From: an uncultured Acidobacteriota bacterium
GTDB taxonomy: Bacteria > Acidobacteriota > Thermoanaerobaculia > Multivoradales > JAHEKO01
NCBI GenBank assembly: GCA_963713825.1
Contig: CAVQNG010000003.1
Location: 480,001 to 544,000, forward strand
Reading direction: 5' to 3'
Length of the DNA stretch: 64,000 bases
Shown here: piece after piece, positions 1,800-21,606 of the stretch
Numbering within the stretch: the stretch's first letter is position 1
How the letters are laid out: every line of letters starts with the position of its first letter
Notes under the pieces: generated by a model
Database searches by the model: none
The model's input: only the letters and a program-made list of their open reading frames with translations
What the model was told of the DNA's origin: nothing
Position numbers and translations under genes: made by a program

Positions 1800-1841
1800 A
1801 CTTCTAAAGTCCCACGGAAACGGACCCAGAGTGGACCACGA
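1800..1841. repeat. Degenerate tRNA-proximal module end (GGACCC/GGACCAC pair)
   Basis: cttctaaagtcccacggaaacggacccagagtggaccacg resembles cttctgaaggtccacggaaatggaccacccgtggaccacg at ~11318-11357. Confidence 0.6.
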
Positions 1842-1889
1842 ATCGAGGTCGAGGAGACAAAAAGGCCCGGCCCCCTTTTCGACCTGCAA

Positions 1890-4061
1890 CTACCGCGGGC
1901 CTCTCATTTCTTCAACCAGGTGCTGCGCGCCCTCTACGGTCTCCATCACCCAGAGGACATATCGCATATCCACGTGGATCGAGCGCGAGACCTCCGGGAT
2001 GAAGTCCCAGTCCGCAATAATGCTCTCCCAGACCCCGTCGAAGAGCAGTCCCACCAGCTCGGACTTACCGTTGAGCGTCGCCGAGCCCGAGTTGCCGCCG
2101 GTGGAGTCCAGAGTGCTGAGAAAGTTCACCGGGACCGAGCCGAGGGGCTCGTAGTGGAAAGACTCGCCGGCGCCTTCACGAATGGCTGCAAGCTCCGCCT
2201 CGGGCGCGTCGAAAGGCTCCTCCCCAGTGTTCTTCTCGACGATCCCCTCCAGGGTTGTAAATGGGAGGTAGGTAACACCGTCCCGAGGCGAGTAGCCCTC
2301 AACGGAGCCATACGTCACCCGCAAGGTCCCGTTGGCATCCGGGTAGACCTCTCTGCCGCGGGCCCCAAGGTAGGCGATGAGCGCCTCCATGTAGCGGGAG
2401 CGAACTTCGTCAAACAGGCCGTCGAGCTCCTTGCCCTCGGCCTCGAGCTCCAGGTCACTCTCGAACATGGCAACTGCGAGTTGGAGGAACGGGTCGTCAC
2501 TGGCTTCGATCTCGGCCGGAGTGGCGTCCAGCCAGGCAAGGCGAGGCTCCTGCTCGTCCAGGCGGGTGGCCTCGTACATTTCCTCCAGCCGCTGGTCCAG
2601 ACGCGCTTCGTCGAGACCTTCCACCCCGATTCCGAACCAATCATCGAAGACGCTCACATGCTGATCGGCGGGGATCGAGGCGTAGTTGACGATGAAGTGC
2701 CGCCAGATGGCCTGATCCACCCCGGGGTCGAACGTGCGATCGATGCGGGTAAGTCGCTCGCGGACCCTGGGCACGTCGCGCTCCTGGTAACCCTGCTCTC
2801 GTTCGAGATCGGGCTTCTGCCTTTCATTGGCCAGCCGGTAGAGGGTGCGGGCGGTGCTCAGGAGATCTCCCCGGCGAACCAAGTACTCGTAGTACATCTG
2901 CCGTTCGCGGGTGCTCTGTTGGCGCACCGCCAACTCCTGGAGCTCCTGGAGAGTCGGCAGAAAGGCGTCCTTGCGGCCGGGGTCGCTTTCGATCCACTGT
3001 TGCAGGTTCCGTTCGAACTCCACCTTGCGGCTCACCATGTCGCTCCTGGCAAAGCCGTCGAGCATGCCCGTGTAGTTCTTGACCGCGTTCTCCAGGCCCC
3101 GGACCAGCGAGGCGTATGCGATGGTCAGCTTCTCGCTCTCGGCCGTCTCCCTGACAATGACGTCGAGCCACTCTTGGTACAGGCCGATGCGGGTCGGGTA
3201 GTACCAGCCAAAGGTGTCCTCGACCTCGGTGGCCAAGCGATAGCGATTGGTTCTTCCCGGGTAGCCCAATGCCATGACGAAATCGCCTTCACCAAGGTGC
3301 TCAGTAGCAACTTTCAGGTAGTGCTCCGGCCGGTAGGGGACGTTTTCCTTCGCGTAGTCGGTCGGCTTGCCATCGGGCCCCACATAGCCCCGATAGAAAG
3401 CGTAGTCGCCGGTGTGCCGGGGCCACATCCAGTTGTCGATCTCCCCGCCAAAGACCCCGATGGAGCCAGCCGGGGCGTGGACCAGCCGGACGTCCCGGAT
3501 CTCGAGCTGCTTGATCAGCTCGTACTCGTGGCTACCGTGATACGCGGCCACCTTGCAGCGATGCCCGGTATCCTCCTCGCAGCCAGCGACCAACTCCTTC
3601 TCCTTGGCAGCGATGGCCTCCCAGCGCTGCCGGCCCGTGGCCCCTTCGGGGAGGCTTCCCCGGATGGTCTCGGTCACATCATCCACCGCCACTGTCACCA
3701 GGATCCGGGAACCAGGAGCTGCCGGGAGCTCGTCGCCCCTCTCGGCAGCGAGAAAGCCCGACTGGAGCAGGTTCCGATCCTCGCTGGAGTTGTACTGGAT
3801 GGCTCCGTAGGCACAGTGATGGTTGGTCACTGCCAGCCCCTGAGAGGAGACAAACGAGGCGGTGCAGCCGCCAAGGCTTATGACTGCACCCATCGGGTGG
3901 CCAGTCAGATCGGCCAGCTTGCGGAACTCGGTCTCGAGGCCTAGCTCCTCGAGCCGGTCCTCGAGGTCAGGGAGCTGCCCCGGCTTCCACATGCCCTCGT
4001 CGGCCACCAGGGCCGGGCCGATGACACAGATCAGAATCAGGGCAGGTACGATCCGCTTCAT
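1890..4061 (-). CDS. S46 family dipeptidyl peptidase (DPP7/DPP11-like), secreted
   Basis: Signal peptide then DEGMW; TNHHC; NWMWPRHTGD; catalytic TGGNSGS. Confidence 0.93.
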   Translation of the reverse strand: MKRIVPALILICVIGPALVADEGMWKPGQLPDLEDRLEELGLETEFRKLADLTGHPMGAVISLGGCTASFVSSQGLAVTNHHCAYGAIQYNSSEDRNLLQSGFLAAERGDELPAAPGSRILVTVAVDDVTETIRGSLPEGATGRQRWEAIAAKEKELVAGCEEDTGHRCKVAAYHGSHEYELIKQLEIRDVRLVHAPAGSIGVFGGEIDNWMWPRHTGDYAFYRGYVGPDGKPTDYAKENVPYRPEHYLKVATEHLGEGDFVMALGYPGRTNRYRLATEVEDTFGWYYPTRIGLYQEWLDVIVRETAESEKLTIAYASLVRGLENAVKNYTGMLDGFARSDMVSRKVEFERNLQQWIESDPGRKDAFLPTLQELQELAVRQQSTRERQMYYEYLVRRGDLLSTARTLYRLANERQKPDLEREQGYQERDVPRVRERLTRIDRTFDPGVDQAIWRHFIVNYASIPADQHVSVFDDWFGIGVEGLDEARLDQRLEEMYEATRLDEQEPRLAWLDATPAEIEASDDPFLQLAVAMFESDLELEAEGKELDGLFDEVRSRYMEALIAYLGARGREVYPDANGTLRVTYGSVEGYSPRDGVTYLPFTTLEGIVEKNTGEEPFDAPEAELAAIREGAGESFHYEPLGSVPVNFLSTLDSTGGNSGSATLNGKSELVGLLFDGVWESIIADWDFIPEVSRSIHVDMRYVLWVMETVEGAQHLVEEMRGPR

Positions 4062-4217
4062 CTCGTGCCTCCTCGCTAGTTCTCTTCACAGGGCCCCGCG
4101 GGCAACCGTGTCGCCGGTCATTTGCAGCTACCTTCGTCCGGGTGCGAGGGTACAAGATGTCACTCACCTCCAACGCCACCCAAAGAGGTGGGGAGAGGCG
4201 GTCGAGCAGGTCCAGCG

Positions 4218-4250
4218 GTCCACCGAAATGGACCACCCGTAGACCACGCG
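4218..4250. repeat. Short tRNA-proximal module end (GGACCAC pair)
   Basis: ggtccaccgaaatggaccacccgtagaccacg matches ends at ~8500-8532, ~11327-11357 and ~21450-21482. Confidence 0.7.
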
Positions 4251-4311
4251 GCTGGATGAGGGACGTGTGTCAAGCCAAACGTTGGGGTGGTTCGGATCGC
4301 GCCTTCATCCT

Positions 4312-4923
4312 TCAGAGCGCTTTCGTCATTCGAACGAACCTCAATCCCGGTATGGCCAAGCGTTTTGGCCACTGGGACTCGACAGTCATCCCGCGGTGCT
4401 CGTAGAGTCTGCGAGCACTCTCGTTCTTGGCAGAGACGTCGAGCGCGAGTCGGGCTGATCCACTGGCAACAGCCCGGTCCTCAATCAAGTCCATCAGGGC
4501 AGAACCGACGCCGTCGCCGCGAACTTCCCTGTCGACGGCGATGGCCTGGAGGTAGAAATCGTCATCGCCGATGGTGTCGATGATTCGTAGCAGTGGAGCA
4601 AACAGTATCGACACAACCATCATCCGCAGATTCCACCTGCCTGCAGCCCTCTTCAGAGTCCGGCCCGAAGAACCACGATGCTGCTCGGCGGTGTAGCCCG
4701 AGACCATTCCTACGATGACCTTGTTACATTCGGCGAAGGTTACGTTTTGGAAAGAGAGGTCGTGGTCGGGCTGGATGAAGGCCGTGGCGACTATGTCCAC
4801 AGCGCGGCGGCCGAGCATGAAACGGAAGAAGCCCTCAGCTGCTGTATCGAGGTAGCGGGCAAACACCCGTCCTTCGTCGAAGGTGGGGTTCGCGGCTCGA
4901 AAAACTGTCGAGTGCTGATGCAT
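4312..4923 (-). CDS. GNAT family N-acetyltransferase
   Basis: AVDREVRGDGVGSAL acetyl-CoA motif A; N..A..LY..G motif B. Confidence 0.85.
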   Translation of the reverse strand: MHQHSTVFRAANPTFDEGRVFARYLDTAAEGFFRFMLGRRAVDIVATAFIQPDHDLSFQNVTFAECNKVIVGMVSGYTAEQHRGSSGRTLKRAAGRWNLRMMVVSILFAPLLRIIDTIGDDDFYLQAIAVDREVRGDGVGSALMDLIEDRAVASGSARLALDVSAKNESARRLYEHRGMTVESQWPKRLAIPGLRFVRMTKAL

Positions 4924-5057
4924 GATTGCTATCTTTGGCCCAACTACAACTAGTTCTCGCTGTCAGCCCACCGAACCGTGTGACTGGAGTGGAATCTAGC
5001 CGGCCGCAGGACTCACATTCTAAGGGCGACAAGCCTTGGGGCTCACGTCACAGGGGC

Positions 5058-6356
5058 CTACCCTTCTTCTTGCCCGTACCCCTTCAACAGAGCCTGAAAG
5101 CGAGGGTGGTCACGGAGGGGGTCCAGGTTGCTGTCCTGCCGGAGCCACTCGATGTAAGCGAGTCCGCTGCTGACGGATTTCTCGATGCACTCCAGGGCCC
5201 GATCGAGGTCTCCGGCCAGTGAGTAGACGCAGCCGACGTTGTAGAGGAGCATCGGCTCATTGGGCTCCAGCTCCAGCGCTCGCTCGACCCAACGGAGTCC
5301 CCGCTCCGACTGACCCAAGCAGACGAGTGCGGTGGCGCCCAGGTAGAGCGCCCGGGTCTCTTCGGGGTTGTGTTGCAGGCGGCGCTCGGCGGCCTGTACT
5401 CCCCGACGCCGGATCGCAGCGGCCTCCTCCGGGCGCTCCAGGTCGTCGTAGATCTGCGCCAGGAGCAAGGGCGCCTGGTAGTCGTCGGGATCGATTCTGG
5501 AGGCATGCCCGAACAGCCTCGCCGCGCTCGCCAGATCACCCTGGGCGAAACTGCTGCGAGCGTAGAAGTAGTACGCCTCGAACAGCTTCGGATTCAAGCG
5601 GATCGCCGTCTCGAAGGCTTCCTCGGACGCTTCGTACTGGTGCTGCATCGACAGCACCAGACCGCGCGCCGCATGCGCCTCGGCCAGATCGGGGGCGAGC
5701 TCGAGCGAACGCCGGCTCGCCAGGTCGGCCTGCTCGAGGTCGGCCTCGTCACCGTCGGCGTACATGAAGAGAAAGGTGCAGCATTCGGCGACGCCAGCGT
5801 AGGCGCGCGCGTAATCATGGTCCAGCATCAGAGCCATGTTGAACAGTTGCAGGGCTGCTTCGACGCCGCGGCGCCGGTACTCGAAGAACCGCTCGCGCCC
5901 TTTGAGGTAGTACTCATAGGCTTGAATGTCGGTGGTCGGTGGTCGCTTGAGAGCCTCCGACTGTCGCTCGTCGAGGCGCAGCTCGAGCGTGTGGGTAATG
6001 CGCTCGGCGATCTCGTGCTGGATGGCGAAGACATCCTCCAGAGGGCGATCGAAGGTCTTGGACCAGAGCTCGAATCCGTCGTCCGTACTGGTCAGTTTGG
6101 CCCTCACGCGCAGACGGCCGTCGGCCTTACCGACGCTGCCCTCGAGAACTGCGGACACCCCCAGCTGCCGCCCAGCCTCCTGAGCGTCGTCGACGGCTCG
6201 AAAGCGGAAGGAGGAGCTGCGCGGTGCGACCCGCAGGCCCTCGATGCGGGACAGGGCAGTAATCAACTCTGTGGCCAGACCGTCGCAGAAGTACCGCTGA
6301 TCCTTCTCTGCGCTCAGATCGGCGAACGGCAGTACAGCTATCGAGAGAGACGGCAT
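5058..6356 (-). CDS. TolB-like N-terminal domain plus TPR repeats (C-terminal module of kinase/adenylate cyclase-type regulators)
   Basis: SIAVLPF.DLS...Q.YF.DGL..ELI..LS signature followed by TPR helices. Confidence 0.85.
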   Translation of the reverse strand: MPSLSIAVLPFADLSAEKDQRYFCDGLATELITALSRIEGLRVAPRSSSFRFRAVDDAQEAGRQLGVSAVLEGSVGKADGRLRVRAKLTSTDDGFELWSKTFDRPLEDVFAIQHEIAERITHTLELRLDERQSEALKRPPTTDIQAYEYYLKGRERFFEYRRRGVEAALQLFNMALMLDHDYARAYAGVAECCTFLFMYADGDEADLEQADLASRRSLELAPDLAEAHAARGLVLSMQHQYEASEEAFETAIRLNPKLFEAYYFYARSSFAQGDLASAARLFGHASRIDPDDYQAPLLLAQIYDDLERPEEAAAIRRRGVQAAERRLQHNPEETRALYLGATALVCLGQSERGLRWVERALELEPNEPMLLYNVGCVYSLAGDLDRALECIEKSVSSGLAYIEWLRQDSNLDPLRDHPRFQALLKGYGQEEG

Positions 6357-6359
6357 CGA

Positions 6360-6695
6360 TTACCTCCCCTGAAGCTCGGTCTTATCCCTGGCGGCCTCAT
6401 CGGGCATGAGTGGAATCGGTACCACATCTCTGCCATCGATTCTCTCACCCTTCAATTCAGTGTTCCCCATAGCGACAATGGCCCCCGTGACCTCGTTGTC
6501 TTCGCCGAAGATGAATTCCAGCTCCCAGCCAGAGTTGATATCAATGAAATGATTATCCGAAGACCAGTCGATCCGACAAGATAAGTTAGATGTTACCCTT
6601 CTCCGATCCTCAGTGACCTGCGGATCCGTTCCTACACTCTTCTCAATGGCTGGTACCGCTATCTCAATCTTCGCGGACCGCTCCCGTGGCTCCAA
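6360..6695 (-). pseudogene. Probable chimeric gene remnant
   Basis: First ~12 codons lie inside the conserved non-coding module end (6658-6793); in frame with the downstream TPR ORF across a TAA. Confidence 0.35.
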
Positions 6696-6793
6696 GATAC
6701 CTTCTCTGGCCAGGGAGACATGTCGAAAGGCCTCACTGATGGTTCAAGAGCCGCCCACAAGGCCCACTGAAATGGACCACGAGTATTGAGTGA
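6658..6793. repeat. Long tRNA-proximal module end, copy 1
   Basis: gctatctca...ctccc..ggctcc.agat.cc...ctggcc..ggagacatgtcg...aaatggaccac...attgagtga shared with 11218-11369 and 21344-21494. Confidence 0.85.
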
Positions 6794-6843
6794 ACTCTCG
6801 GTGTAGGGATGTCCCTTACGGGCGCCCGCGGGAGGGGGCAAGC

Positions 6844-6951
6844 TGTACGTTCTCACGACATAGGTAACACTCGTGTATCAGGACATCGGTAACACCTGAG
6901 GCAAGCTAGTGCCTTTAGTAGAGGAGGTGCTGGATGCCCTGGAAGGAGACC
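6844..6951 (+). mobile_element. IS481-family left-end remnant
   Basis: TGT terminus, repeated gacat(a/c)ggtaacac sites, RBS gaggagg, then ATG CCC TGG AAG GAG ACC (MPWKET) and truncation. Confidence 0.6.
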
Positions 6952-6967
6952 GAAGGGAGGCACCCGC

Positions 6968-7000
6968 GGACCGCGTGAACGGTCGCCGGTTTTCAAGACC
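6968..7000 (-). repeat. tRNA-Ser fragment A (anticodon arm plus variable arm), att-like
   Basis: ggaccgcgtgaacggtcgccggttttcaagacc identical to 21545-21577. Confidence 0.92.
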
Positions 7001-7109
7001 TCCGATCTCCCACAACTGACAACCCTCCACAACATCTGACAACGAAGCGACGGGGCTTCGCTGGCAGAGGTGATTGTTGTGGTCGATGCTCAAGAGTGGT
7101 GGTGAGTTG
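7001..7109. repeat. tRNA-distal module end, copy 1 (ACAAC/GTTGT phased repeats; truncated)
   Basis: Near-identical to 14793-14900 and similar to 8749-8856. Confidence 0.88.
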
Positions 7110-7211
7110 GTGACGCCAAGCTAGTTCCCCCGGGGGAAACCCTGCGATGAAGGGTGTTAGGGTGAGAGTCGAGATTCACCCTGCCGTCAAGCGCGGAGGA
7201 CCGTTGAATCC

Positions 7212-8498: not shown

Positions 8499-8545
8499 AG
8501 CCCCACTCGAAATGGACCACCCGTGGACCACGGACATTGAGTGAC
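8497..8545. repeat. Short tRNA-proximal module end
   Basis: aaatggaccacccgtggaccacggacattgagtga. Confidence 0.85.
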
Positions 8546-8549
8546 CAAT

Positions 8550-8576
8550 CGGCCGGCAGGGGCACCGGCCGCTTCA
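8550..8576. repeat. REP-like palindrome CGGCCGGCAGGGGC(A/G)CCGGCCGCTTCA
   Basis: Copies at 8550, 11375, 24051 and 30626; GC hairpin. Confidence 0.8.
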
Positions 8577-8587
8577 CGTATTGGAGA

Positions 8588-8748
8588 TGGCGGAGGGGGT
8601 GGGATTCGAGCACGGAGGGGCAGGTGCGGGGGTGCAGTGCCGGCGACCAACGGGAGCCCAACACGGAGGGGTAGGCGAGGGGATGCAGTGAAGCCGACCA
8701 TCGGGAGGCAACCTTGGGCCGCGTGAACGGTCGCCGGTTTTCAAGACC
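8588..8748 (-). repeat. tRNA-Ser 3'-half fragment B with ~100-nt T-loop insertion
   Basis: tggcggaggg..gggattcga [8610-8710] accttgggccgcgtgaacggtcgccggttttcaagacc versus 21517-21577. Confidence 0.9.
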
Positions 8749-14792: not shown

Positions 14793-14930
14793 TCCGATCT
14801 CCCACAACTGACAACACTCCACAACACCTGACAACGAAGCGACGGGGCTCCGCTGGCAGGGGGGATTGTTGTGGTCAATGCTCAAGAGTGGTGGTTAGTT
14901 GTGGTCTAGGGGACCGAGAGTGGACCACGG
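14793..14930. repeat. tRNA-distal module end, copy 3
   Basis: Same sequence family as 7001-7109 and 8749-8886. Confidence 0.88.
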
Positions 14931-14936
14931 GGCGTC

Positions 14937-15104
14937 CTGAATCCCTTCAGAGTCAGGCGACATCTGCTCCGACCAGCCAACCAGCGAATGCTGCGTGCCC
15001 GCTCCTTCCTTGTGTGGCATGAGGTGACGTGTGCCTGCCCGATCCAGAATTAGGCCCCGGATTCGGCCCAAGCCTCGCTCGGCAGACGCCAAGTTGACAG
15101 AGCC
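14937..15104 (+). mobile_element. IS6-family right-end remnant
   Basis: Translates LNPFRVRRHLLRPANQRMLRARSFLVWHEVTCA (IS6-like transposase C-terminus); ends aagttgacagagcc (GGCTCTGTC-type IR). Confidence 0.55.
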
Positions 15105-15178
15105 TAGGCGACGGGTCTCGGCGACACCATGCTGCTCATGATGGTGGCTTCCAATTCTGGCATTGCGAGGGGCTTCCT

Positions 15179-16486
15179 TCAATCGAACAGCCCTGATCTT
15201 GCGAGCTGCCTGGCGATACGCGGCATTTCATCCATCCGCCCTGCAGTCTTGGTGCCGAACCACGCAACTACCAATTCCTTCGACGCAGACACGTACAGGC
15301 CTTGCCCGCCGAATCCACTCTTGAAGAAGTCGCCGTCAGAGGTGACGACGTCCCATTGGCGGGTACTGTGGTGGAACGACCCATCACCGAGATCTTCGTT
15401 GTGCCAACGCCTTTGCTCTTCGGTGGTTAGCTCGGGTCGACCGGCTTCTTGGATGTTGTCGAGATAGGCATCAGACACCACAGGATTCCCCCCGGCGCGC
15501 CCCTTCGGAGTGAAGAGCATCCCGTAACGAGCCAGATCACGCAAAGTGCTGCTGAACCCTCCCCCGGAAAAGGAGTTGCCGTGGGCCGTGGCAGTGATGA
15601 ACGCGTCGGACTCAGCACCTGTGCGCCGCCAGATCTCACGCTCGACAAAGTCAGAGAAGCGCTCCCCCGAGACGGCCTCCACCAACCCATTGAGGATCTC
15701 GGTATTCACCGAGGTATAGTCGAACACCTGACCGGACGGCGCACCCCGAGACATCTGTGCGACGGTGTTCATTGGGTCGGCCAGAACTTGGTCAGTCTCC
15801 GGCCACCCGAAGGCGTCGTAGAAGGCCCAGAAGCACGAGTCGGGCTCATATTGAACTTCCGGGCAGTCGATCCCGGACGCCATGTCCAAGATGTCGATGA
15901 CCGGAATGCCTTCCCAGGCGGTCCCGGCGAGGGGTTTGAGATAGGAGTCGATGGGCCGGCTCACATCGATGCGCCCGCGGTCCTCCAGAATCGCCATGGC
16001 CGTCGAGACCATGGTCTTCGAGACCGAGAACCAAACATGTCTGTCGGTGGGCAGCATCCGCGGATAGGTCTCGAAGACGATCCGCCCATCGTGGACGACC
16101 AGCGCTCCGTCCACTGCAGAATTCTCCGCGTAATCCGCCAGAGTCATTTCGCCCGCCTCCACCGATACCGTGACGTTCCCGATCCCTGCGCCGGGGTCCA
16201 CGGGAAGCGACCTGATGGGCCCGTTCCGCCTGAGTACGATCTGTGGCCAGAATTCCGACATGTGTAGGTAGACGTAACGGGTGAAGTCCCCGCCCTGTGA
16301 CCACTCGGAGAAGGTGGGATCGAAGCGTCGATGGATGTCCCTCACCTCCTCCAAGGTAAAGAAGCGCTCGGCCTCCGATAGGGCGGAGGTGGAATCCACC
16401 ACCTCGCTGTCAGAAGCCGCCGGCTCCGTGGCTGGCATACATCCGACTGCCAGGACAAGGACGAGTCCGGCCATTGGCTGCTTCAT
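15179..16486 (-). CDS. Serine hydrolase, class C beta-lactamase/NylB-like lipoprotein
   Basis: Lipobox AVGC; SVSK (SxxK), YTS, KSG.GGQ. Confidence 0.88.
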   Translation of the reverse strand: MKQPMAGLVLVLAVGCMPATEPAASDSEVVDSTSALSEAERFFTLEEVRDIHRRFDPTFSEWSQGGDFTRYVYLHMSEFWPQIVLRRNGPIRSLPVDPGAGIGNVTVSVEAGEMTLADYAENSAVDGALVVHDGRIVFETYPRMLPTDRHVWFSVSKTMVSTAMAILEDRGRIDVSRPIDSYLKPLAGTAWEGIPVIDILDMASGIDCPEVQYEPDSCFWAFYDAFGWPETDQVLADPMNTVAQMSRGAPSGQVFDYTSVNTEILNGLVEAVSGERFSDFVEREIWRRTGAESDAFITATAHGNSFSGGGFSSTLRDLARYGMLFTPKGRAGGNPVVSDAYLDNIQEAGRPELTTEEQRRWHNEDLGDGSFHHSTRQWDVVTSDGDFFKSGFGGQGLYVSASKELVVAWFGTKTAGRMDEMPRIARQLARSGLFD

Positions 16487-16534
16487 TGTCTCAAGCTCCC
16501 AGAAACGGCTCCACCTACGCTGCTACGAGAGGCC

Positions 16535-16705
16535 GCATAACGGATCCGCCCATAACCTGCAGGCTTCGCCGCGTAAGAGTTGGCGAGAAGATACCACCCC
16601 GGAGCCAGGCAGCTAGAGCGGCCTTCTCGGCGACAGCCGAGACGAGGTCGCGGAATTCACTCCCAACTCGTCAAGCGGCCTGTAAGGTTCAGGGGCTTGT
16701 TATGC
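16535..16705 (-). mobile_element. Integron attC site 1
   Basis: Minus strand: GCATAAC aagcccctgaaccttacaggc...gcctgcaggttatgggcggatcc GTTATGC; R''/L''/L'/R' layout. Confidence 0.75.
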
Positions 16706-17161
16706 GGCGGACGACGTAGCCATCTCAGATCTCGCGACGAGGTACGCGAGGTAGAACATTCGGAGAAACGAGATCATGAAAACCACGGACAGCACGATCA
16801 GCAGGGGACCGTAGGTAGGATCCTCGGCCAAGGGTCTACGTCCCTCGGGAACGAATCTGTCGAGACCAACGGCGCCGAGAAGACTGAAAAACGAGAGAAT
16901 ACGATTTGTAGCGACAGCCTTGCGTCTTCTGGATGCAAGCTGAGATGACTCATTCGGCCGGACGGGCGACGCGAACACCGGAAGCAAGAAGGGAATCCCG
17001 AGCGCCGCTGGAAGCCACCAAGCCGGGTTCTCACCTGGTATATCGACTGCAAGGGGGACTGCGCCCAAGAAGACAAGGAAGAGCCCTAGCGAGCCTGAGG
17101 CGATACGTACGGGCAGGCCAATCGGCGAGTTGCTTTTAGCCACCAAATGAGTCCGCCGCAT
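16700..17161 (-). CDS. Gene-cassette membrane protein (hypothetical)
   Basis: Fills the space between two attC sites; its TAA lies in R''; TM segments. Confidence 0.65.
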   Translation of the reverse strand: MRRTHLVAKSNSPIGLPVRIASGSLGLFLVFLGAVPLAVDIPGENPAWWLPAALGIPFLLPVFASPVRPNESSQLASRRRKAVATNRILSFFSLLGAVGLDRFVPEGRRPLAEDPTYGPLLIVLSVVFMISFLRMFYLAYLVARSEMATSSAA

Positions 17162-17292
17162 AACGCCCTCGGGCTAACCGGCGCCGCCAACGACGGTACC
17201 GGGAATCTCGATTGATTGAACTGGTCACTTGCAGAGTTTACAACCGCTCCCGCAACGCGACGGGCGGCGTCCGGTTCAGCGAGTTGTTAGAG
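17158..17292 (-). mobile_element. Integron attC site 2
   Basis: Minus strand: CTCTAAC aactcgctgaaccggacgccgcc...ggcggcgccggttagcccgagggc GTTATGC with an extrahelical base. Confidence 0.78.
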
Positions 17293-17427
17293 GGCACCTC
17301 AGAACACGTAGTCGACAAAACCAACAACGGCCGCGCCAACGATGGACAGAATGAGCGCCAGCCAGAGGGAGGAACGAGCCTCATGGATTCTGACGCCCGG
17401 CCGGAGGAGCACGATGATGGTGTCCAG

Positions 17428-17919
17428 CTACTGAACGGCGCTGGACCACGCTGTGGTGTCGCCAGACTCGAAGCCGTCGGCGAAGACCCTGGTGATGGGC
17501 GGACAGGGCAGTGTGGCCGCGCGGACCACCTCCAAGCCGGTGCCCTCCACGCGGGCCGCTTCGGCTACGGACAGAGCCTCGGGATGACAACCGTTCCGGA
17601 CTTGGAGGTCTACCAGAGTTACCAGAGCTCCCGATCCGACCACCTGCACCAACCCCTCGATGATCGGCGTCCCGGCACCCGGCCCAGTGATCGTCAGGGA
17701 ACGAGGCACGTGGATCGACTCCGCATACGTCTGATCGACCAAGTCGATCTGGGTGCAAGCAAGATCGTCCACGGCCGCCTGAATCGTGAGGTGAGAGCCG
17801 GGCACGGTGCAGGTGATTGCTCGTACAGGGACCCGAGCCATCAGAACCAGAACCAGAACCAGAAACAAGACTGGCCTGACGAGGGGAGGTAGGGACTGCA
17901 GCGTTCGTCGCGTGCGCAT
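17428..17919 (-). CDS. Secreted protein with C-terminal FADGFESGDTTAWS motif
   Basis: Signal peptide; VPG...TIQAAVD beta-helix-type start; conserved tail. Confidence 0.75.
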   Translation of the reverse strand: MRTRRTLQSLPPLVRPVLFLVLVLVLMARVPVRAITCTVPGSHLTIQAAVDDLACTQIDLVDQTYAESIHVPRSLTITGPGAGTPIIEGLVQVVGSGALVTLVDLQVRNGCHPEALSVAEAARVEGTGLEVVRAATLPCPPITRVFADGFESGDTTAWSSAVQ

Positions 17920-17923
17920 CGGA

Positions 17924-19288
17924 CTATTGGCTGGCGCAGTAGAGATCCACGGTCACCGTGGAGGATCCTAGGGGGTTGAACGCACCGCACGCCCACCCCG
18001 TCGGCGGTAGACCGGCTCCAGCACTGGTCGGTGCGCTGTTGATCAGGGTGGCCGAGCCCGGGAAGGCCGTACATCCACCGGTCCAGACGATGCTGCCAGC
18101 TGGGCATGCTACGGAACAGCTGAAGGTGCCGCTGCAGGAAACGTGGGTCAGGGTCGGTTGTCCACAAACCCAGGCGGAGCCGTTCCAGTGAACGACCTGA
18201 CCCGGGCCACAGGACAGGCTTGCCAGGGTATCGGTACCCGTGCTGGCGCATACCCAGGCTCCTCCATCCCACTGTGCCACCTGTGTAGCGGCGCAGGAGA
18301 GGCCGCCCAGAGTGTCGTCGTTCTCGTCGGCGACACATTGCCAGGTCGCGCCATTCCACTTGGCGATCTGTGTTGGGCTACAGGCGAGAGATCCAAGTGT
18401 GTCGCTATCGGTCAGGGTGGTGACAACGTCGGCGCCATCCACTTGTAGGGTCATCGCGCCTGTACCGGAGTTGCGGATGTCGAACGTCTGATCGCTGCCG
18501 GAGGAGCGATCCAGTGTCGACTCGGTCAGTCCGGCGTCGGGTGCAACACCGTCTCCCCGCAAGAGCAAGTCGGTGGCATCTGCGGTGTTCTCCGCCGACA
18601 ACCCGGCGCCACCGGGCGAGCTGCTGATGCCTTCAACGCCGTAGGTCTCACCCGTTGGATCGGAAATCTCACCGCGAATGGCCGCGATTCCCGTCCCCTC
18701 TGGCGCACTGGGACCAGTACCAGCCTCGCCAGCTGCAGCCCCAAGCTCCAGAGTCTTTGTCCGTGGTTCCCTTTCCTCGCCTGCTACCTGCGGTCCCAGC
18801 GGGTCTGCCTCGCCACGTTGCGCACGTTCCACGTAGAGGTTGAGAACGTCGAGAGCCGCTTCGACCGCTGCCACCGTGGGTCGAGCGCCGACCGTAAACA
18901 TCCGGGGATCGGCCCACTTCGACGGCACGTCCTCGGCGAGAGCTCGTAGCGTCCAGGCATAGCTCCCTCCTGGCTTCAAGCATTGATCGAGAGACGGGGT
19001 CCACCCTCGGGCCGCTCCAGGGACCGTCACGCGAAGGACAGGCTCTACCTCCTCGACCCCTACACTTCGAGGCAGCTCCTCGGCGGAGAGCCGATAGATC
19101 ACCAGCTCAAAGGAGGTAGCCCTTACATCCGAGCCCCAGTTGAACGTGGGGCAGTGATCAGCGATTTCTACGCTTCTTTGGGAGTCACCCGGTGAGACCA
19201 ATTCAAGTGGCAGGCTTGCGCCCTGCGCCCAGGGGCTAGCGAGAAACAAGACGAGTGAAGGCACCAGAACTCGGCATGCTGTGTTCAT
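17924..19288 (-). CDS. Secreted protein with three Cys/Trp repeats (fibre/adhesin-like)
   Basis: Signal peptide; DTLxxLxCxxxQxxxWxGxxWxC x3. Confidence 0.7.
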   Translation of the reverse strand: MNTACRVLVPSLVLFLASPWAQGASLPLELVSPGDSQRSVEIADHCPTFNWGSDVRATSFELVIYRLSAEELPRSVGVEEVEPVLRVTVPGAARGWTPSLDQCLKPGGSYAWTLRALAEDVPSKWADPRMFTVGARPTVAAVEAALDVLNLYVERAQRGEADPLGPQVAGEEREPRTKTLELGAAAGEAGTGPSAPEGTGIAAIRGEISDPTGETYGVEGISSSPGGAGLSAENTADATDLLLRGDGVAPDAGLTESTLDRSSGSDQTFDIRNSGTGAMTLQVDGADVVTTLTDSDTLGSLACSPTQIAKWNGATWQCVADENDDTLGGLSCAATQVAQWDGGAWVCASTGTDTLASLSCGPGQVVHWNGSAWVCGQPTLTHVSCSGTFSCSVACPAGSIVWTGGCTAFPGSATLINSAPTSAGAGLPPTGWACGAFNPLGSSTVTVDLYCASQ

Positions 19289-19452
19289 CTTGAAACTCCT
19301 TTACTGTGGTTCTTCCGAAGACAGAGCAGAAAGTCCAATCCGTCGCAGATTCACATCCGCGGTAAACGCCGAAGCAGCAGTCTTCTCTCCGATCCTACCT
19401 CGCTCGACAGCGGCTGAGATGACGGCGCCCTCCAGTCACTTTGCGGCCTTAC

Positions 19453-19794
19453 CTAGATGCGCCTAATGCAGTCATCTAGACTCTGTTTCACCTGATGTTC
19501 CCAGATCCGGATGACCGTCCACCCTTTTCGTCTGAGTGACTGGTGGTTTCGCCGATCTCGCTTTCGGTTCCCCACGATCTTTGCCTGCCACTTCGGAGAC
19601 AGGGTGTCTTTCCACGAAGGGAATCGCCAGCCGTGCCAGAAATCACCATCCAGGAAAACGGCAACCTGTTCCACCCTGAAGACGATCTCGGGCTTTCCAG
19701 CTAGGTCACCACCGTGCTTCTCGAGCTCGCGCCAGAACTCGGGCTCGGCGAGCAGGTCCTCCATGAAGGCCGCAGGGTCGATGATGGGCACCAC
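19453..19794 (-). pseudogene. vsr: Vsr very-short-patch repair endonuclease fragment
   Basis: L.GKPEIVF...VFLDGDFWHG...W..KI..N..RD...L...GW.VIRIWEH; canonical N-terminus absent. Confidence 0.75.
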
Positions 19795-19829
19795 CTATTG
19801 GTCTGTTGAGGGGTGGGTAGCGTTACAGG

Positions 19830-21179
19830 CTAGGGGTCAGAACTCGACCAAGCCGACGTGTCGCCCGACTCGAAGCCGTCCTGAAAGATCCAAGACGATT
19901 GGAACATCCGAGCTTGGATGCTCGTTAGATCATCATCGGTTCCAGGCGATCTCCAGCCTGACCAAGCCACGACAAACCTTCCTCCAGGCCCAGGAGCTAT
20001 CGCCGGATTCCGCTGGCCGTCTGTTGTGTAGCTGTTGACCTGAAAATCGCCTGTAAGGGGAGTGCTGTCTGCCTTGAACTCTCGCCCAAGGATCCCCGAT
20101 GAATCAGTATGAGGTGGCCTACCGTAGTGATGCCAAACAACGACGAACTCTCCATTCGGTCGCATCGCAATTGGCGAGGTCACCTGATACTGGGTCGTGT
20201 AGTTGCTGACCTGGAACTGTTGCCCGAGAGGCTCGCCCTCATTGTCGAATCGTTGTGCCTGGATCGTCCAGGCCGAGGTGTTGACGCCATAGAACGATGT
20301 CCAGGTCACCACGAAGTCACCAGAAGCGTCTGCGCCAATGTACGGGGCGGTTTGTACATGATCAGTGAAGGAATTGACCTGGAAGTCGCTGCCTTGAGGT
20401 GTTGTATCCGACAAGAAGCGGCGAGCTTGAATGCTCTGCCTCCAGTTATCCGACCCGTAGGACCCGTCACTAGTCCAGGTGACCACGAAGTTTCCTCCAG
20501 CGTCTGACGCTACCTGCGAATTTCGCTGCGGCCCGGTAGTGTAGCTGTTCACTCGAAACTCGCCCCCCATTGGCGTTCCATCTGACTGGAACCGCCGACC
20601 CTGCACGCTCCGGTCCGGGTCGGTTCCAAAGCCTCCTCCTGACCAAGTCACAACGAATTGACCATTTCCTTGACTCGCAGCCGCAGGGCAGCATTGGCTG
20701 CCGGTTGTATGGCTATTGACCTGGAACTCACGAGAGTCGTGGGGGGCCCAGGGTCTTACGACACGACCCTGGATGCTGAAACTGTCGGTATCGCTTTCAA
20801 ACGAGCCTTCACTGTGCCACATGACAATGAAATTGCCCGACTCATCCGCAACTGCATGAGGGAATGCCTGGGCACCTGTTGTGTAGGTATTGAGCTGAAA
20901 CTGGCTTCCCATCGGCGCGCCTAGAGCATCGAACCTCTGGACCTGAATGCTGTAGTCGTCTATGTCCGTTCCAGCGGAGCCCTCGCTCTGCCAGGCAATG
21001 AGAAAGCTCCCGTCGGGCGCTACCGCCACGGAAGGAAACCACTGCCAACCGGTGGTGTAGGTGTTGACCTGGAAATCATCACCAATTGGAACCGGCCCCT
21101 GAGCGGTCAGAGTAGAGGATTGGCAGAGCAGGAGACTCGCGCCCAGTAGGTTCGAGAACTTTCGGAGAAGGTGACGCAT
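19830..21179 (-). CDS. Secreted repeat (beta-propeller-like) protein with C-terminal FQDGFESGDTSAWS motif
   Basis: ~7 repeats of FQVN.YTTG.Q..P.VA....G.FVV.W; signal peptide. Confidence 0.8.
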   Translation of the reverse strand: MRHLLRKFSNLLGASLLLCQSSTLTAQGPVPIGDDFQVNTYTTGWQWFPSVAVAPDGSFLIAWQSEGSAGTDIDDYSIQVQRFDALGAPMGSQFQLNTYTTGAQAFPHAVADESGNFIVMWHSEGSFESDTDSFSIQGRVVRPWAPHDSREFQVNSHTTGSQCCPAAASQGNGQFVVTWSGGGFGTDPDRSVQGRRFQSDGTPMGGEFRVNSYTTGPQRNSQVASDAGGNFVVTWTSDGSYGSDNWRQSIQARRFLSDTTPQGSDFQVNSFTDHVQTAPYIGADASGDFVVTWTSFYGVNTSAWTIQAQRFDNEGEPLGQQFQVSNYTTQYQVTSPIAMRPNGEFVVVWHHYGRPPHTDSSGILGREFKADSTPLTGDFQVNSYTTDGQRNPAIAPGPGGRFVVAWSGWRSPGTDDDLTSIQARMFQSSWIFQDGFESGDTSAWSSSDP

Positions 21180-21343
21180 AGGCAGCCCAACAACGACCCA
21201 GAGTCCATGGTGGCACGAGGCCACACAAGAGTCAGTGATCTGCGCTACCGCTTTCGCAGGACTCTCTGCTCGCCGTCTTCCGGTGGGAATGATCCGGGGA
21301 GGCCAGTCTTTCCCCTTGCCCTCCCTGGACTTCTGACCTCCGG

Positions 21344-21494
21344 GTAGCTATCTCAATATTCGCGAACCTCTCCCGTGGCTCCGAGATACCGCTTCTGGCC
21401 ACGGAGACATGTCGGGGAGCTTCACTGGCAGTTCAGGGGTGCTTCTGAAGGTCCACTCCAAATGGACCACGCGTGGACCACGGACATTGAGTGA
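21344..21494. repeat. Long tRNA-proximal module end, copy 3 (next to the intact tRNA)
   Basis: Ends aaatggaccacgcgtggaccacggacattgagtga. Confidence 0.88.
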
Positions 21495-21516
21495 TCGGTA
21501 CTCAATAGGGAGAAAG

Positions 21517-21606
21517 TGGCGGAGGGGAAGGGATTCGAACCCTTGGACCGCGTGAACGGTCGCCGGTTTTCAAGACCGGTGCTTTCGACCACTCAGCCAC
21601 CCCTCC
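21517..21606 (-). tRNA. tRNA-Ser(TGA)
   Basis: GGAGGGG acceptor stem, anticodon arm CCGGT-CTTGAAA-ACCGG, long variable arm, AAGGG-TTCGAAT-CCCTT, G discriminator, encoded CCA. Confidence 0.97.

What the first reader, a model, noticed from the sequence alone, without database searches (positions are those of the whole stretch)
1800..21606. tRNA-Ser-anchored tandem array of integrase-less mini-islands behaving like gene cassettes
Seen: four displaced copies of the tRNA-Ser 3' half (6968, 8588, 11413, 14682), all starting at the anticodon stem. They divide the DNA downstream of the intact tRNA into modules 14793-21516, 11575-14681, 8749-11412 and 7001-8587. Most modules keep the same two non-coding ends around unrelated cargo, usually 1-3 genes (about six in the tRNA-proximal module). 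Orphan proximal ends at 6658, 4218 and 1800 suggest older, eroded modules. No integrase ORF is present. Known: tyrosine integrases can cross over in tRNA anticodon loops and islands accrete in tandem. Inference: minimal elements of two ends plus cargo, mobilised in trans, form an integron-like capture array using a tRNA as the attachment site, with age increasing away from the tRNA.
Basis: partly seen in the sequence, partly recalled or inferred. Interest (0 to 1): 0.88.

Follow-up and report, generated by a model that had tools for sequence, protein, structure and literature searches.

The report
Integrase-less gene-module array at tRNA-Ser
Behind the only tRNA-Ser(UGA) gene of a sediment acidobacterium lies a roughly 49-kb stack of small gene modules, each bounded by the same recombination-site arms but with no recombinase gene of its own, and related species swap these modules; the layout is a known way of collecting foreign genes, seen here in an unusually pure, cassette-like form.

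Summary
The window holds the tRNA-proximal 21 kb of a ~49-kb array (G000:C3:452,676-501,606) with about 15 junctions or junction relics between tRNA-Ser(TGA) and rsgA.

A full junction has three parts: a 133-nt distal arm, a copy of tRNA positions 30-90, and a ~177-nt proximal arm. The tRNA copy often carries a 51-nt or ~70-nt insert in the T-loop.

The same junction occurs in 5 of 5 congeners and in 30 of 33 metagenome loci, beside dozens of unrelated cargo genes. No recombinase was found in or beside any array.

Evidence for movement:
- Array cargo is 92-99% identical between species whose core genes are 75-86% identical.
- One near-identical strain carries a different module, with its own distal arm, in the same slot. 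The switch point lies inside the tRNA anticodon-stem copy (p = 3.6e-17).

The proximal arm carries a TGGTCCA double repeat. The same repeat sits in the tRNA-to-integrase spacer of a tyrosine-integrase family. That family has one copy elsewhere in this genome and members beside tRNA-Ser(TGA) in other genera.

Verdict: tandem accretion of cis-mobilizable (CIME-like) modules. This is a variant of a known kind, and this scan has met it on other DNA. Mobilisation in trans is inferred, not shown.

The parts
21517..21606 (-). Intact tRNA-Ser(TGA), the anchor (attB side) of the array
   Evidence: ARAGORN; Rfam tRNA 63.9 bits; the only TGA isoacceptor in the genome
21340..21516 (-). Proximal arm ('P-end', P' arm) of module 1. 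It starts CTTTCTCCCTATTGAGTA-N6-ACTCAAT and carries the double repeat GTGGTCCA-CGC-GTGGTCCA plus an inverted TGGACC at 21450-21481
   Evidence: (copies at 11218-11369, 8496-8544, 6658-6784)
14931..21339 (.). Cargo of module 1. A 464-aa protein with seven ~57-aa repeats (19830-21224, minus strand); unknown ORFs at 17924-19288, 17428-17919 and 16700-17161; a beta-lactamase-fold serine hydrolase (15179-16486). Not found in the 5 congeners
14798..14930 (-). Distal arm ('D-end', P arm, family A). GTGGTCCAC at the outer edge, two CCACAAC, and four GTTGTSAG/GTTGTGG repeats next to the core
14682..14797 (-). Displaced tRNA copy. Positions 30-68 (14753-14792) and 69-90 (14682-14703) are 100% identical to the gene and are split by one 51-nt unit (14704-14754) in the T-loop
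11701..14681 (.). Cargo of module 2: TetR regulator (14023-14622, plus strand), metallo-beta-lactamase (MBL)-fold hydrolase (12677-13954, minus strand), 298-aa unknown ORF (11784-12680, minus strand). No proximal arm
11579..11700 (-). Distal arm of a second att family ('D-end2', CCAGAC/GTCTGG repeats). A related arm precedes the tRNA copy at C3:453,908-453,973
11412..11578 (-). Displaced tRNA copy (positions 25-68) with two 51-nt units. Its 3' end has the CCCAC T-stem type, a mismatch to its own AAGG 5' half
11218..11411 (-). REP-like GC hairpin (11375-11401) plus proximal arm positions 23-174 of module 3
   Evidence: (D2, D10)
8887..11217 (.). Cargo of module 3: alpha/beta hydrolase with TAP-like domain (9512-11107, plus strand) and a 152-aa ORF (8942-9400, minus strand). 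A 99%-identical strain (L047) has a DUF5996 gene here instead
8757..8886 (-). Distal arm (family A) of module 3. It is 15% diverged from the arm at the same place in L047, while the DNA on its other side is 0.6% diverged
8587..8756 (-). Displaced tRNA copy with two 51-nt units. 8509-8748 is 99% identical to 11334-11573
   Evidence: (D2)
8496..8586 (-). GC hairpin plus truncated proximal arm (positions 23-71) of module 4
7110..8495 (.). Cargo of module 4: proline-iminopeptidase-type alpha/beta hydrolase (7212-8498, plus strand)
7006..7109 (-). Distal arm (positions 30-133) of module 4
6952..7005 (-). Eroded displaced tRNA copy (positions 30-62 intact, then a degenerate start of the 51-nt unit)
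6658..6951 (-). Unrelated insert containing a GC-rich hairpin repeat (6803-6953, copies in G003 and G004), then proximal arm positions 43-170 (6658-6784) of module 5. In G004 the homologous arm directly follows the intact tRNA
1890..6356 (-). Cargo of module 5: TPR protein (5058-6356), GNAT acetyltransferase (4312-4923), isolated arm motif (4217-4248), S46 peptidase (1890-4061). 99% identical to G004:C74 over 4235 nt
1770..1840 (-). Collapsed junction: distal-arm positions 1-19 fused to proximal-arm positions ~48-90. G004 has the complete junction at this place

Best explanation
The DNA between tRNA-Ser(TGA) and rsgA is a tandem accretion array of small integrative modules that have lost, or never had, their own integrase. 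These are cis-mobilizable, CIME-like elements.

Each module is proximal arm, then cargo, then distal arm. Each junction is an attP-like site: distal arm + tRNA positions 30-90 + proximal arm of the next module.

Proposed steps:
- A tyrosine integrase that crosses over in or next to the anticodon stem-loop copy inserts a circular module. It inserts either at the tRNA (only modules with an intact 3' half) or at any displaced copy. This step is inferred.
- The distal arm and cargo therefore move together. This is shown.
- Modules are exchanged between strains and species. This is shown by identity contrasts.
- The integrase is supplied from elsewhere. This is inferred.
- The arms point to one tyrosine-integrase family, whose tRNA-to-integrase spacers carry the same TGGTCCA double repeat. 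This genome has one member at C25:523,105-524,208.
- Homologous recombination between the conserved junctions probably adds to the shuffling and collapses some junctions.
For: 1. Anatomy.
- The direct tRNA copies all start at position 30 and are flanked by conserved arms with phased short repeats.
- About 15 junctions or relics lie between the tRNA and rsgA.
- The terminal junction joins a distal-arm fragment to the same flank that follows the tRNA directly in G003. The whole array is therefore an insertion between the tRNA and rsgA.

2. Spread.
- The distal arm occurs in 5 of 5 congeners and in 30 of 33 metagenome loci.
- It lies next to unrelated cargo such as kinase, PLD, GGDEF, AMP-ligase, Kelch and DUF5996 genes.

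3. No recombinase found.
- 0 of 65 array ORFs had a recombinase domain in Pfam.
- 0 of the 84 ORFs tested (of 151 ORFs of at least 150 aa) beside the metagenome junctions had one.
- No family of this kind recurred among 922 ORFs.
- tblastn with 5 integrases of the candidate family gave no hit in any array locus, while the positive control on C25 was found.

4. Unit of exchange.
- This genome and L047 differ at 12 of 1967 positions up to the core (window 6786-8752).
- They differ at 20 of 134 positions in the distal arm, and beyond it the cargo is unrelated (Fisher p = 3.6e-17).

5. Gain near the tRNA. In G004 the intact tRNA and proximal arm are followed directly by the TPR module. That module lies four modules away from the tRNA here.

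6. Horizontal exchange.
- Core flank is 75-86% identical to congeners.
- Array segments are 92-99% identical.
- On the single contig G004:C80, the core side is 76-83% identical and the array side 91%.
- Distal-arm copies do not cluster by genome: 11 label changes against 12.2 in shuffles.

7. Core constraint.
- Of 41 distal arms that reach the boundary, 29 are followed by at least 30 of 33 matching tRNA bases, and 17 by 33 of 33.
- The arms themselves average 89% identity.

8. Integrase family.
- The double repeat T[GT]GTCCA-N3-5-T[GT]GTCCA occurs 8 times in the genome.
- Three are proximal arms, two are one arm-like copy held on two contigs (C14/C38), and one lies 22-39 nt upstream of the C25 integrase start. 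The other two are unexplained.
- It also lies in the spacer upstream of the integrase gene in 3 of 39 other family loci, two of them beside a tRNA (Poisson p = 1.5e-5).
- One of these (L190) has the same layout as the proximal arm, including the inverted TGGACC.
- 4 of 40 family loci lie beside tRNA-Ser(TGA).
Against: - No integrase of the candidate family was found in the 5 congeners. G001, 91% complete, shows only two Xer-like genes.
- In this genome the motif beside the C25 integrase is inverted relative to the other family loci. That integrase sits in an island next to tRNA-Lys, not tRNA-Ser.
- The proximal arm and the tRNA-Ser-to-integrase spacer of G157 are only weakly alike overall (z = 2.4).
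- No circles or empty sites were seen (one search was uninformative).
- The identity switch at the core would also arise from homologous recombination inside the near-identical tRNA-copy block.
- 16 of 69 distal arms lack the core and 9 of 41 have a truncated core, so part of the array is dead.
- rsgA and katG, which are ordinary chromosomal genes, lie among distal arms in G003 and G004.
- In G005 the S46-TPR block sits elsewhere without junctions, at core-like 77-78% identity.
- The proximal arm of module 5 is 91% identical to G004 while its cargo is 99%, a mosaic.
- The congeners are MAGs, and short high-identity contigs could be mis-binned.
Confidence: 0.55

Rival explanations
1. Fossil array. 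Ordinary integrase-bearing islands inserted one after another at tRNA-Ser and each lost its integrase by deletion. Nothing moves by site-specific recombination today. The arms survive only because the events are recent.
For: - Many junctions are damaged. 16 of 69 distal arms are core-less, 9 of 41 have truncated cores, and there is one collapsed junction and one eroded copy.
- No integrase was found in 5 congeners.
- The proximal arm looks like a tRNA-to-integrase spacer, as expected if the integrase gene was deleted just behind it.
- A tRNA-Arg locus in the same genome also has three displaced copies and no integrase.
Against: - No integrase remnant was found in about 40 junction contexts.
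- Modules are 1.5-6.7 kb, smaller than typical islands.
- Arms and cores are far better kept (89% and ~97%) than core genes between the same species (75-86%).
- Near-identical strains differ by whole modules.
- Module identity of 92-99% across species needs recent transfer.
Confidence: 0.2
2. Homology-driven cassette shuffling. The conserved ~400-bp junctions act only as portable homology. After DNA uptake, RecA-type recombination between junctions replaces, deletes or adds modules. No dedicated recombinase is involved now.
For: - Two junctions share a 240-nt repeat at 99% identity (family D2).
- The collapsed junction at 1809-1840 joins two copies of the same 18-nt motif.
- Identity inside module 5 is a mosaic, 91% against 99%.
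- The switch point lies at the edge of the near-identical block, where homologous exchange would also end.
- Chromosomal genes (rsgA, katG) share the high inter-species identity.
Against: - It does not explain the origin of direct tRNA copies that all start at position 30.
- It does not explain the phased arm repeats shared with integrase spacers.
- It does not explain why cores are kept better than arms.
Confidence: 0.2
3. Assembly or binning artefact. The repeats misled the assembler, or the high-identity contigs of congeners belong to other strains.
For: - Congeners are fragmented MAGs of 210-640 contigs.
- A 240-nt 99% repeat could allow mis-joins between 8.5 and 11.5 kb.
Against: - The array lies inside a 1.9-Mb contig.
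- Independent metagenome contigs reproduce two stretches with their junctions at 98-99.6%.
- Single contigs (G004:C80, G003:C50) carry both low-identity core and high-identity array DNA.
Confidence: 0.03

Closest known systems
Cis-mobilizable elements (CIMEs) and tandem accretion at the 3' end of a target gene (ICESt1/CIME of Streptococcus thermophilus; Pavlovic 2004 and Bellanger 2011, as cited in review PMC5704250, of which I read passages only)
   Same: [quoted passage not shown]
   Different: No ICE or IME partner lies in or beside the array. There are about 15 junctions rather than one or two. Modules are mostly 1-3 genes. The same arms occur genus-wide with dozens of cargos. Derivation from an ICE is not shown.
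Dehalococcoides ssrA-specific genomic islands (PMC3146451, passages read)
   Same: Many tandem islands within 100 kb downstream of a single-copy RNA gene, bounded by direct repeats of its 3' end. Some lack the integration module and were proposed to be CIMEs. The region is strain-variable.
   Different: There, 16 islands carry a serine-recombinase (DsiB) module whose gene overlaps attL, and the repeat is 20 bp in the T-loop. Here no island carries any recombinase, no large serine recombinase lies near, the repeat is 61 nt starting at the anticodon stem, and the arms point to a tyrosine integrase.
Tycheposon-shaped islands of Prochlorococcus (bioRxiv 10.1101/2020.12.28.424599, passages read)
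   Same: Islands next to tRNA genes (tRNA-Ser(TGA) appears among that paper's gene labels), partial tRNAs between neighbouring elements, newcomers pushing older ones inward, degenerate remnants, cargo of environmental use.
   Different: Tycheposons carry an integrase, usually with a replication module. Partial tRNAs there mark whole elements, and most island DNA lacks clear boundaries. Here boundaries are sharp ~375-bp sites and none of the modules has an integrase or replication gene. A separate contig (C35) does carry an integrase, RepA and a helicase but has no link to tRNA-Ser.
Integrons (IntI, attI, attC cassettes; recalled, not tested against a paper here)
   Same: An array of small units of unrelated genes that lack their own recombinase, at one anchored site.
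   Different: There is no integrase gene fixed beside the anchor and no attC-type hairpin sites. Cassettes point both ways and carry regulators of their own. The anchor is a tRNA gene.

Membership tests
CIME / tandem accretion array | [quoted passage not shown] | tested here: met
   Direct copies of tRNA positions 30-90 with conserved arms at each module border
CIME / tandem accretion array | No integration or transfer genes inside the element | tested here: met
   Pfam on 65 array ORFs; PHROGs on 26 unknown ORFs; six-frame PF00589, PF00239 and PF07508; tblastn
CIME / tandem accretion array | Derived from an ICE or IME by decay and mobilised in cis by an adjacent functional element | tested here: inconclusive
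   The proximal arm resembles tRNA-to-integrase spacers of one integrase family. No integrase remnant and no adjacent functional element were seen
Tyrosine-integrase attP with arm-type sites (lambda-like; architecture recalled) | Core at the crossover, flanked by arms that carry repeated binding sites distinct from the core | tested here: inconclusive
   Repeats GTGGTCCA, CCACAAC and GTTGTSAG in both arms at about -130 to +120 from the anticodon loop. Binding was not tested
Tyrosine-integrase attP with arm-type sites (lambda-like; architecture recalled) | Cognate integrase encoded next to attP | tested here: not met
   None in the array, in congener array contigs or in metagenome flanks
Integron | IntI-type integrase with attI and a promoter beside the array | tested here: not met
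   No PF00589 hit in C3 between 67 kb and 1156 kb. Genes upstream of the tRNA are a decarboxylase, two unknown ORFs and SerRS
Integron | attC hairpin sites; cassettes mostly promoterless and co-oriented | tested here: not met
   Junctions are ~375-bp two-armed sites. Fold of the proximal arm shows weak covariation, -0.78 kcal. Cargo lies on both strands and includes TetR regulators
Serine-recombinase islands (ssrA-GI / SCC type) | Large serine recombinase at the island edge, its 3' end overlapping the att site | tested here: not met
   PF00239 and PF07508 hits only at C3:798-1479 in this genome and on G004:C201 and C120, none near an array. Junction indels are not multiples of three
Tycheposon | Integrase plus replication module inside the element, integrated in a tRNA 3' half | tested here: not met
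   tRNA 3'-half integration is met. No integrase or replication gene lies in any module

The most novel reading that the evidence does not exclude
A genus-wide gene-exchange platform without resident recombinase genes. The ~375-bp junctions (tRNA-Ser anticodon core plus arms carrying the binding repeats of one tyrosine-integrase family) are kept as portable recombination sites. Any cell that transiently hosts an integrase-bearing member of that family can then capture, reorder and export one- to three-gene modules, including chromosomal genes such as rsgA and katG, across species. The tRNA copies disabled by T-loop inserts serve as landing pads that spare the single essential tRNA-Ser(UGA) gene.
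Probability: 0.2. Interest if true: 0.8.

Novelty: new variant of a known kind. Interest (0 to 1): 0.55.

Why it matters
- If the modules are still moved in trans, this is an integron-like route of gene capture. It would run on tyrosine-integrase att sites at a tRNA gene, in an uncultured sediment lineage with few recognisable mobile elements. It would help explain how such genomes exchange hydrolases, regulators and transporters across species borders.
- The locus gives concrete test objects: a defined ~375-bp site, a candidate integrase family, and strain pairs that differ by one module.
- If the array is only a fossil, it is still a clean record of how tRNA islands are built and eroded.
- It also warns that 'island without integrase' does not mean 'no site-specific history'.

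Tried and rejected
- Reads. All 18 runs found are kept as short contigs. The joints on window 1750-21700 have sides of 20-37 nt and map to other tRNA-Ser genes or repeat variants. This gives no verdict on circles, deletions or order.
- RNA gene idea.
  - Rfam at E <= 1 finds only the tRNA; the other two hits are far below their thresholds.
  - The consensus fold of 11 proximal arms has 2 compensatory pairs and a covariation term of -0.78, so it was rejected.
- Proximal arm as a relic of the integrase 5' coding end. A peptide-like frame (..RGISEPRERFANIEIAT..) recurs. However, tblastn with three integrase N-termini gives only E >= 0.065 in scattered frames, and I saw no codon-position bias in the one pair of copies compared by eye. 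Not supported.
- Serine-recombinase lead from earlier scan notes. No such gene lies near any array.
- Integrase on contig C35 (Arm-DNA-bind_3 domain, with RepA_C and a DnaB-like helicase; identical over the sequence printed for G003:C173). It has no tRNA-like stretch longer than 13 nt and no arm motif. No link.
- Xer idea. Only Xer-like recombinases are shared by all congeners. The palindrome ATTGAGT-N7-ACTCAAT occurs only in the array plus one unrelated site. There was no way to test further.
- Viral contigs (two patterns, 0 hits), and phage and plasmid collections (only tRNA-Ser genes).
- Viral relatives of the C25 integrase are at most 38% identical and were not followed.
- One archaeal hit of the 21-nt pattern (L017) is a chance match.
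- The whole metagenome records behind the loci could not be opened. The 89-kb contig behind L051 was therefore seen only over 4 kb.
- The proximal-arm-like copy on C14/C38 is oriented opposite to the nearby tRNA-Arg and was not explained.
- Literature. Searches for 'integrase-less' + tRNA + island returned 0 papers. 'Thermoanaerobaculia' + 'genomic island' returned 2, and a five-term Acidobacteria search returned 8; none looked relevant from titles and abstract starts. Supplements of the tycheposon preprint are closed and may hold comparable integrase-less examples.

Full report
**What is there**

The window is G000:C3:480,001-544,000 of a 5.4-Mb, 38-contig genome. Earlier notes of this scan, and the titles of congener MAGs, place it in Acidobacteriota, class Thermoanaerobaculia.

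The window has one tRNA gene, tRNA-Ser(TGA) at 21517-21606 on the minus strand. It is the only TGA isoacceptor among 49 tRNA genes.

Read in the direction of the tRNA, the gene is followed by a ~177-nt conserved non-coding stretch, which I call the P-end (21340-21516). Then comes cargo, then a 133-nt conserved stretch, the D-end (14798-14930). Five bases later comes a copy of tRNA positions 30-90. The same pattern repeats at 11.4, 8.6 and 7.0 kb.

All copies begin at GGTCTTGAAAACC, the last three bases of the 5' anticodon stem.

**Corrections to the observation**

- Three of the four copies are interrupted in the T-loop, between GGGTT and CGAATCC, by one or two copies of a 51-nt unit (family D3, 5-7).
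- Other genomes show a different ~70-nt hairpin insert at the same place, and shortened versions of the 51-nt unit.
- The copy at 6952-7005 is eroded.
- Module 11575-14681 has another kind of distal arm (11579-11700, CCAGAC/GTCTGG repeats) and no P-end. A related arm precedes a further tRNA copy at C3:453,908-453,973. At least two att families are therefore mixed in the array.
- The 'orphan' at 1809-1840 is the first ~19 nt of a D-end fused to the middle of a P-end, at a motif the two arms share. Congener G004 has the complete junction at that spot.
- The 4217-4248 'orphan' is the bare 32-nt arm motif.

**Extent**

BLAST of the pieces against the genome shows that the array runs on for 27 kb beyond the window start. 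There are about 15 junctions or relics between C3:452,676 and 501,606.

The last relic is a D-end fragment plus GGTC, joined to the sequence that in congener G003 follows the intact tRNA directly and leads into rsgA. The whole ~49 kb is therefore inserted between the tRNA and rsgA.

Cargo across the array is ordinary accessory metabolism and regulation:
- alpha/beta hydrolases, a beta-lactamase-fold hydrolase and an MBL-fold hydrolase;
- TetR regulators, GNAT, a TPR protein and an S46 peptidase;
- an MFS and an ABC transporter, a methyltransferase, an amidohydrolase and DJ-1/PfpI;
- NUDIX, BLUF, an arylsulfotransferase, a two-component pair and several unknown ORFs.

Genes point both ways.

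**No recombinase in cis**

- Pfam on 65 ORFs of the array and its flanks gave no recombinase domain.
- PHROGs on 26 unknown ORFs gave none.
- Six-frame searches of the whole genome place the five PF00589 hits elsewhere: C25:690,869; C3:66,614; C25:523,198; C35:970; and a fragment at C3:1,156,518. The one large serine recombinase is at C3:798-1479.

**Is it a family?**

All 5 congeners (70-100% complete MAGs) have several copies of the D-end plus tRNA-copy junction. In the 35 other relatives searched, mostly only the tRNA part matches, with two partial exceptions.

One exception, in another genus (G022), is a displaced tRNA-Ser copy with recognisably related arms.

An exact 21-nt D-end pattern found 33 metagenome loci on 28 contigs. 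Of these, 30 carry a clear D-end, 1 a 23-nt piece and 2 nothing more. Both forms of the junction occur there, with and without the T-loop insert.

Of the 151 ORFs of at least 150 aa in those loci I scanned 84, leaving out overlapping frames and duplicate loci. None has a recombinase domain. The neighbours include kinase, phospholipase D, GGDEF, AMP-ligase, Kelch, DUF5996, FadL, sigma-54 activator and others.

Clustering 922 ORFs from all array loci gave no recurrent recombinase-like family. The only large cluster is the junction itself read as protein.

**Evidence that modules move**

First, identity contrasts.
- The core flank on the other side of the tRNA (window 21.5-41.5 kb, including SerRS) is 75-86% identical to the congeners and syntenic on G004:C80.
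- Array segments are far closer:
  - window 1822-6056 is 99% identical to G004:C74 over 4235 nt;
  - the MFS gene is 97% in G002, G003 and G004;
  - ABC/M1-peptidase segments are 92-97%;
  - katG is 95%, 93% and 88%, and rsgA is 94% and 92%;
  - a kinase/regulator pair is 96% in G005.
- On the single contig G004:C80 the core side is 76-83% identical and the array side 91%.
- D-end copies do not group by genome: 11 label changes, shuffled mean 12.2.

Second, gain and loss.
- In G004 the intact tRNA and a P-end are followed at once by the TPR gene (L011 1-608 = window 6251-6843).
- G004:C74 ends in the same gene 195 nt further on, so the two contigs probably abut.
- The four modules at window 7001-21516 are thus missing there. 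Apart from remote homologues of two genes and a 250-nt repeat, they were not found in any of the 5 congeners.

Third, a slot occupied by different modules in near-identical strains.
- One metagenome contig (L046/L047) matches window 5706-8885.
- Base by base there are 12 differences in 1967 nt from 6786 to 8752. There are then 20 in the 134 nt of the D-end, and no homology beyond.
- The neighbour is a DUF5996 gene instead of this genome's two genes (Fisher p = 3.6e-17).
- The switch lies inside the 37-nt anticodon-stem/variable-arm copy.
- Another contig (L050) loses homology right after GGTCTTGAAAACC.

**Constraint**

Choosing junctions by their D-end, not by the core, gives 41 arms that reach the boundary with enough sequence behind them.
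- 29 are followed by at least 30 of 33 matching tRNA bases, and 17 of those match all 33.
- 9 are followed by fewer than 25, because the copy is cut short.
- The arms themselves average 89% identity to the reference arm.
- Some of these copies come from strains nearly identical to G000, so they are not all independent.
- 16 of 69 D-ends stop at position 111-112 and are followed by a GC-rich hairpin repeat instead of the core. Those junctions are dead.

**What the T-loop inserts imply**

A crossover in the anticodon loop hands the newcomer's positions 39-90 to the working gene.

A site with an insert in the T-loop would wreck the only tRNA-Ser(UGA). That this tRNA is indispensable is my inference from its being single-copy.

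Consistently, the module next to the real gene supplies an uninterrupted 3' half, and the interrupted copies are all displaced ones. So either such modules insert only into displaced copies or the inserts came later.

Either way the array need not grow only at the tRNA. Copy decay is indeed not ordered by distance.

Three junctions pair an AAGG 5' T-stem half with a CCCAC 3' half. This points to some exchange between the two halves.

I could not explain the 51-nt unit. Its 3' part resembles the tRNA acceptor end (..CCCCTCCG..), which suggests a nested scar.

**Which recombinase?**

The P-end carries GTGGTCCA-N3-GTGGTCCA followed by an inverted TGGACC. The D-end starts with the same GTGGTCCAC.

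In the whole genome the relaxed double repeat occurs 8 times:
- three P-ends;
- one P-end-like copy present on two contigs (C14/C38);
- two unexplained sites;
- one site 22-39 nt upstream of the start of the tyrosine integrase at C25:523,105-524,208.

That integrase has relatives at E <= 1e-40 in 37 of 151 genomes of the order, but in none of the 5 congeners.

I examined 40 loci of the family.
- Where a tRNA was found nearby, it was Leu, SeC, Lys, Arg, Thr or Gly.
- In 4 loci it was tRNA-Ser(TGA).
- In 3 of the 39 loci from other genomes the double repeat sits in the spacer upstream of the integrase gene, in two of them beside a tRNA (Poisson p = 1.5e-5 against the rate in G000).
- One locus (L190) reads TGGTCCA-GAAT-TGGTCCA-CTGACTG-TGGACC-TT, the same layout as the P-end TGGTCCA-CGCG-TGGTCCA-TTTGGAG-TGGACC-TT.
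- In one tRNA-Ser locus (L171) the spacer starts ..CTTTCTCCTAT, like the P-end CTTTCTCCCTAT. The rest is only weakly alike, z = 2.4.

I read the P-end as the tRNA-to-integrase spacer (P' arm) of an element of this family, with the integrase gene gone. No trace of the gene is left in any array locus.

Points against the C25 gene being the helper:
- its motif is inverted relative to the other loci;
- it lies in a 12-kb segment bounded by a duplicated tRNA-Lys promoter and 5' part;
- the congeners lack the family.

**Mechanism, with what is shown and what is inferred**

Shown:
- the architecture;
- genus-wide reuse of the arms with unrelated cargo;
- absence of recombinase genes;
- module-level differences between strains and species, with the D-end linked to its cargo;
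- high inter-species identity of cargo;
- the shared arm motif with one integrase family.

Inferred:
- crossover by a tyrosine integrase in the anticodon stem-loop;
- circular intermediates;
- supply of the enzyme in trans;
- use of displaced copies as targets.

Homologous recombination between junctions is a real contributor, and it is a rival for the present-day exchange. Evidence for it: the collapsed junction, the 240-nt 99% repeat, and the 91%/99% mosaic in module 5.

**Comparison with what is known**

The closest descriptions are these.
- CIMEs with tandem accretion (review PMC5704250, passages).
- The tandem ssrA islands of Dehalococcoides, some of which lack the integration module (PMC3146451, passages).
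- Tycheposon-shaped islands (preprint 10.1101/2020.12.28.424599, passages).

The present case differs in four ways:
- no member with an integrase in six genomes and about 40 junction contexts;
- very small modules;
- long, well-kept two-armed sites;
- interrupted tRNA copies.

It is not an integron by any defining feature tested.

This scan has reported similar integrase-less arrays at tRNA genes on other DNA. A word search returned 38 notes, several of them at tRNA-Ser. The kind is therefore not new to the scan.

I found no paper on such arrays in Thermoanaerobaculia or Acidobacteria with the searches.

**Verdict**

It is a variant of a known process rather than a new kind of system. The open point is whether, and by which enzyme, the modules still move.

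Noticed in passing
window 17156-17407: A 250-nt non-coding stretch that is 91-93% identical to sites in G004:C201 and G003:C65 (two copies there), far above the core identity. It may be a small mobile repeat or an RNA gene, and it contains a possible ~28-codon ORF on the minus strand.
   Followed up: partly
window 8550-8576, 11375-11401, 24051-24077 and about 25 other genome sites: A 27-nt GC hairpin (CGGCCGGCAGGGGCGCCGGCCG..), REP- or terminator-like, scattered over many contigs.
   Followed up: no
window 6803-6953; also C3:454,4xx, 461,1xx, 467,4xx, 468,6xx: A GC-rich hairpin repeat (GGGGAGGGGCTTGCCCCCTCCC..GCAAGG..) sits inside several junctions and replaces the tRNA copy in 16 of 69 distal arms. 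Copies at 88-96% identity lie on unrelated contigs of G003 and G004.
   Followed up: partly
window 19830-21224 (minus strand) and 17428-17919 (minus strand): A 464-aa ORF with seven tandem 171-174-nt repeats. Its C-terminal ..DGFESGD..W.. motif is shared with the neighbouring ORF and with a gene next to the P-end-like copy on C14. No family hit.
   Followed up: no
G000:C14:85,987-113,328: tRNA-Arg(TCG) also has three displaced 3' copies (positions 33-77 at 100%, 57-77, and 33-73 at 90%) within 27 kb, and no PF00589 hit on the contig. This is a second integrase-less array in the same genome. An earlier scan note calls it ordinary scars.
   Followed up: partly
G000:C25:512,150-524,500: A 12-kb segment holding the candidate integrase is bounded by a 105-nt direct repeat made of the tRNA-Lys promoter and the first ~66 nt of the gene. 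The 5' part, not the 3' part, is duplicated.
   Followed up: partly
G000:C35 (21.9 kb) and G003:C173: A contig with a P4-type integrase (Arm-DNA-bind_3), RepA_C and a DnaB-like helicase. It is identical over the sequence printed for a contig of another species, suggesting a recently shared integrative replicon.
   Followed up: partly
G000:C1:146,162-146,232: A solitary junction away from any tRNA gene: a tRNA-Ser copy with a shortened 51-nt unit, a CCAGAC-type arm before it and a condensed P-end after it.
   Followed up: no
C3:444,985-452,609 (L001) and G003:C50, G004:C74: rsgA and katG, ordinary chromosomal genes, lie among distal arms in G003 and G004. They are 88-95% identical across species whose core is ~80% identical. 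In G005 the S46-TPR block sits elsewhere, without junctions, at 77-78%.
   Followed up: partly
window 12677-13954 (minus strand): An MBL-fold hydrolase scoring above the NCBIfam cut-off for the GntH equivalog (453 bits, cut-off 333). It sits beside a TetR gene and a 298-aa unknown ORF and has no other pathway genes nearby.
   Followed up: no
window 22004-26138: Seryl-tRNA synthetase lies 3.2 kb upstream of the tRNA-Ser gene. The pyridoxal-dependent decarboxylase between them (22004-23425) is absent at this place in G004.
   Followed up: no
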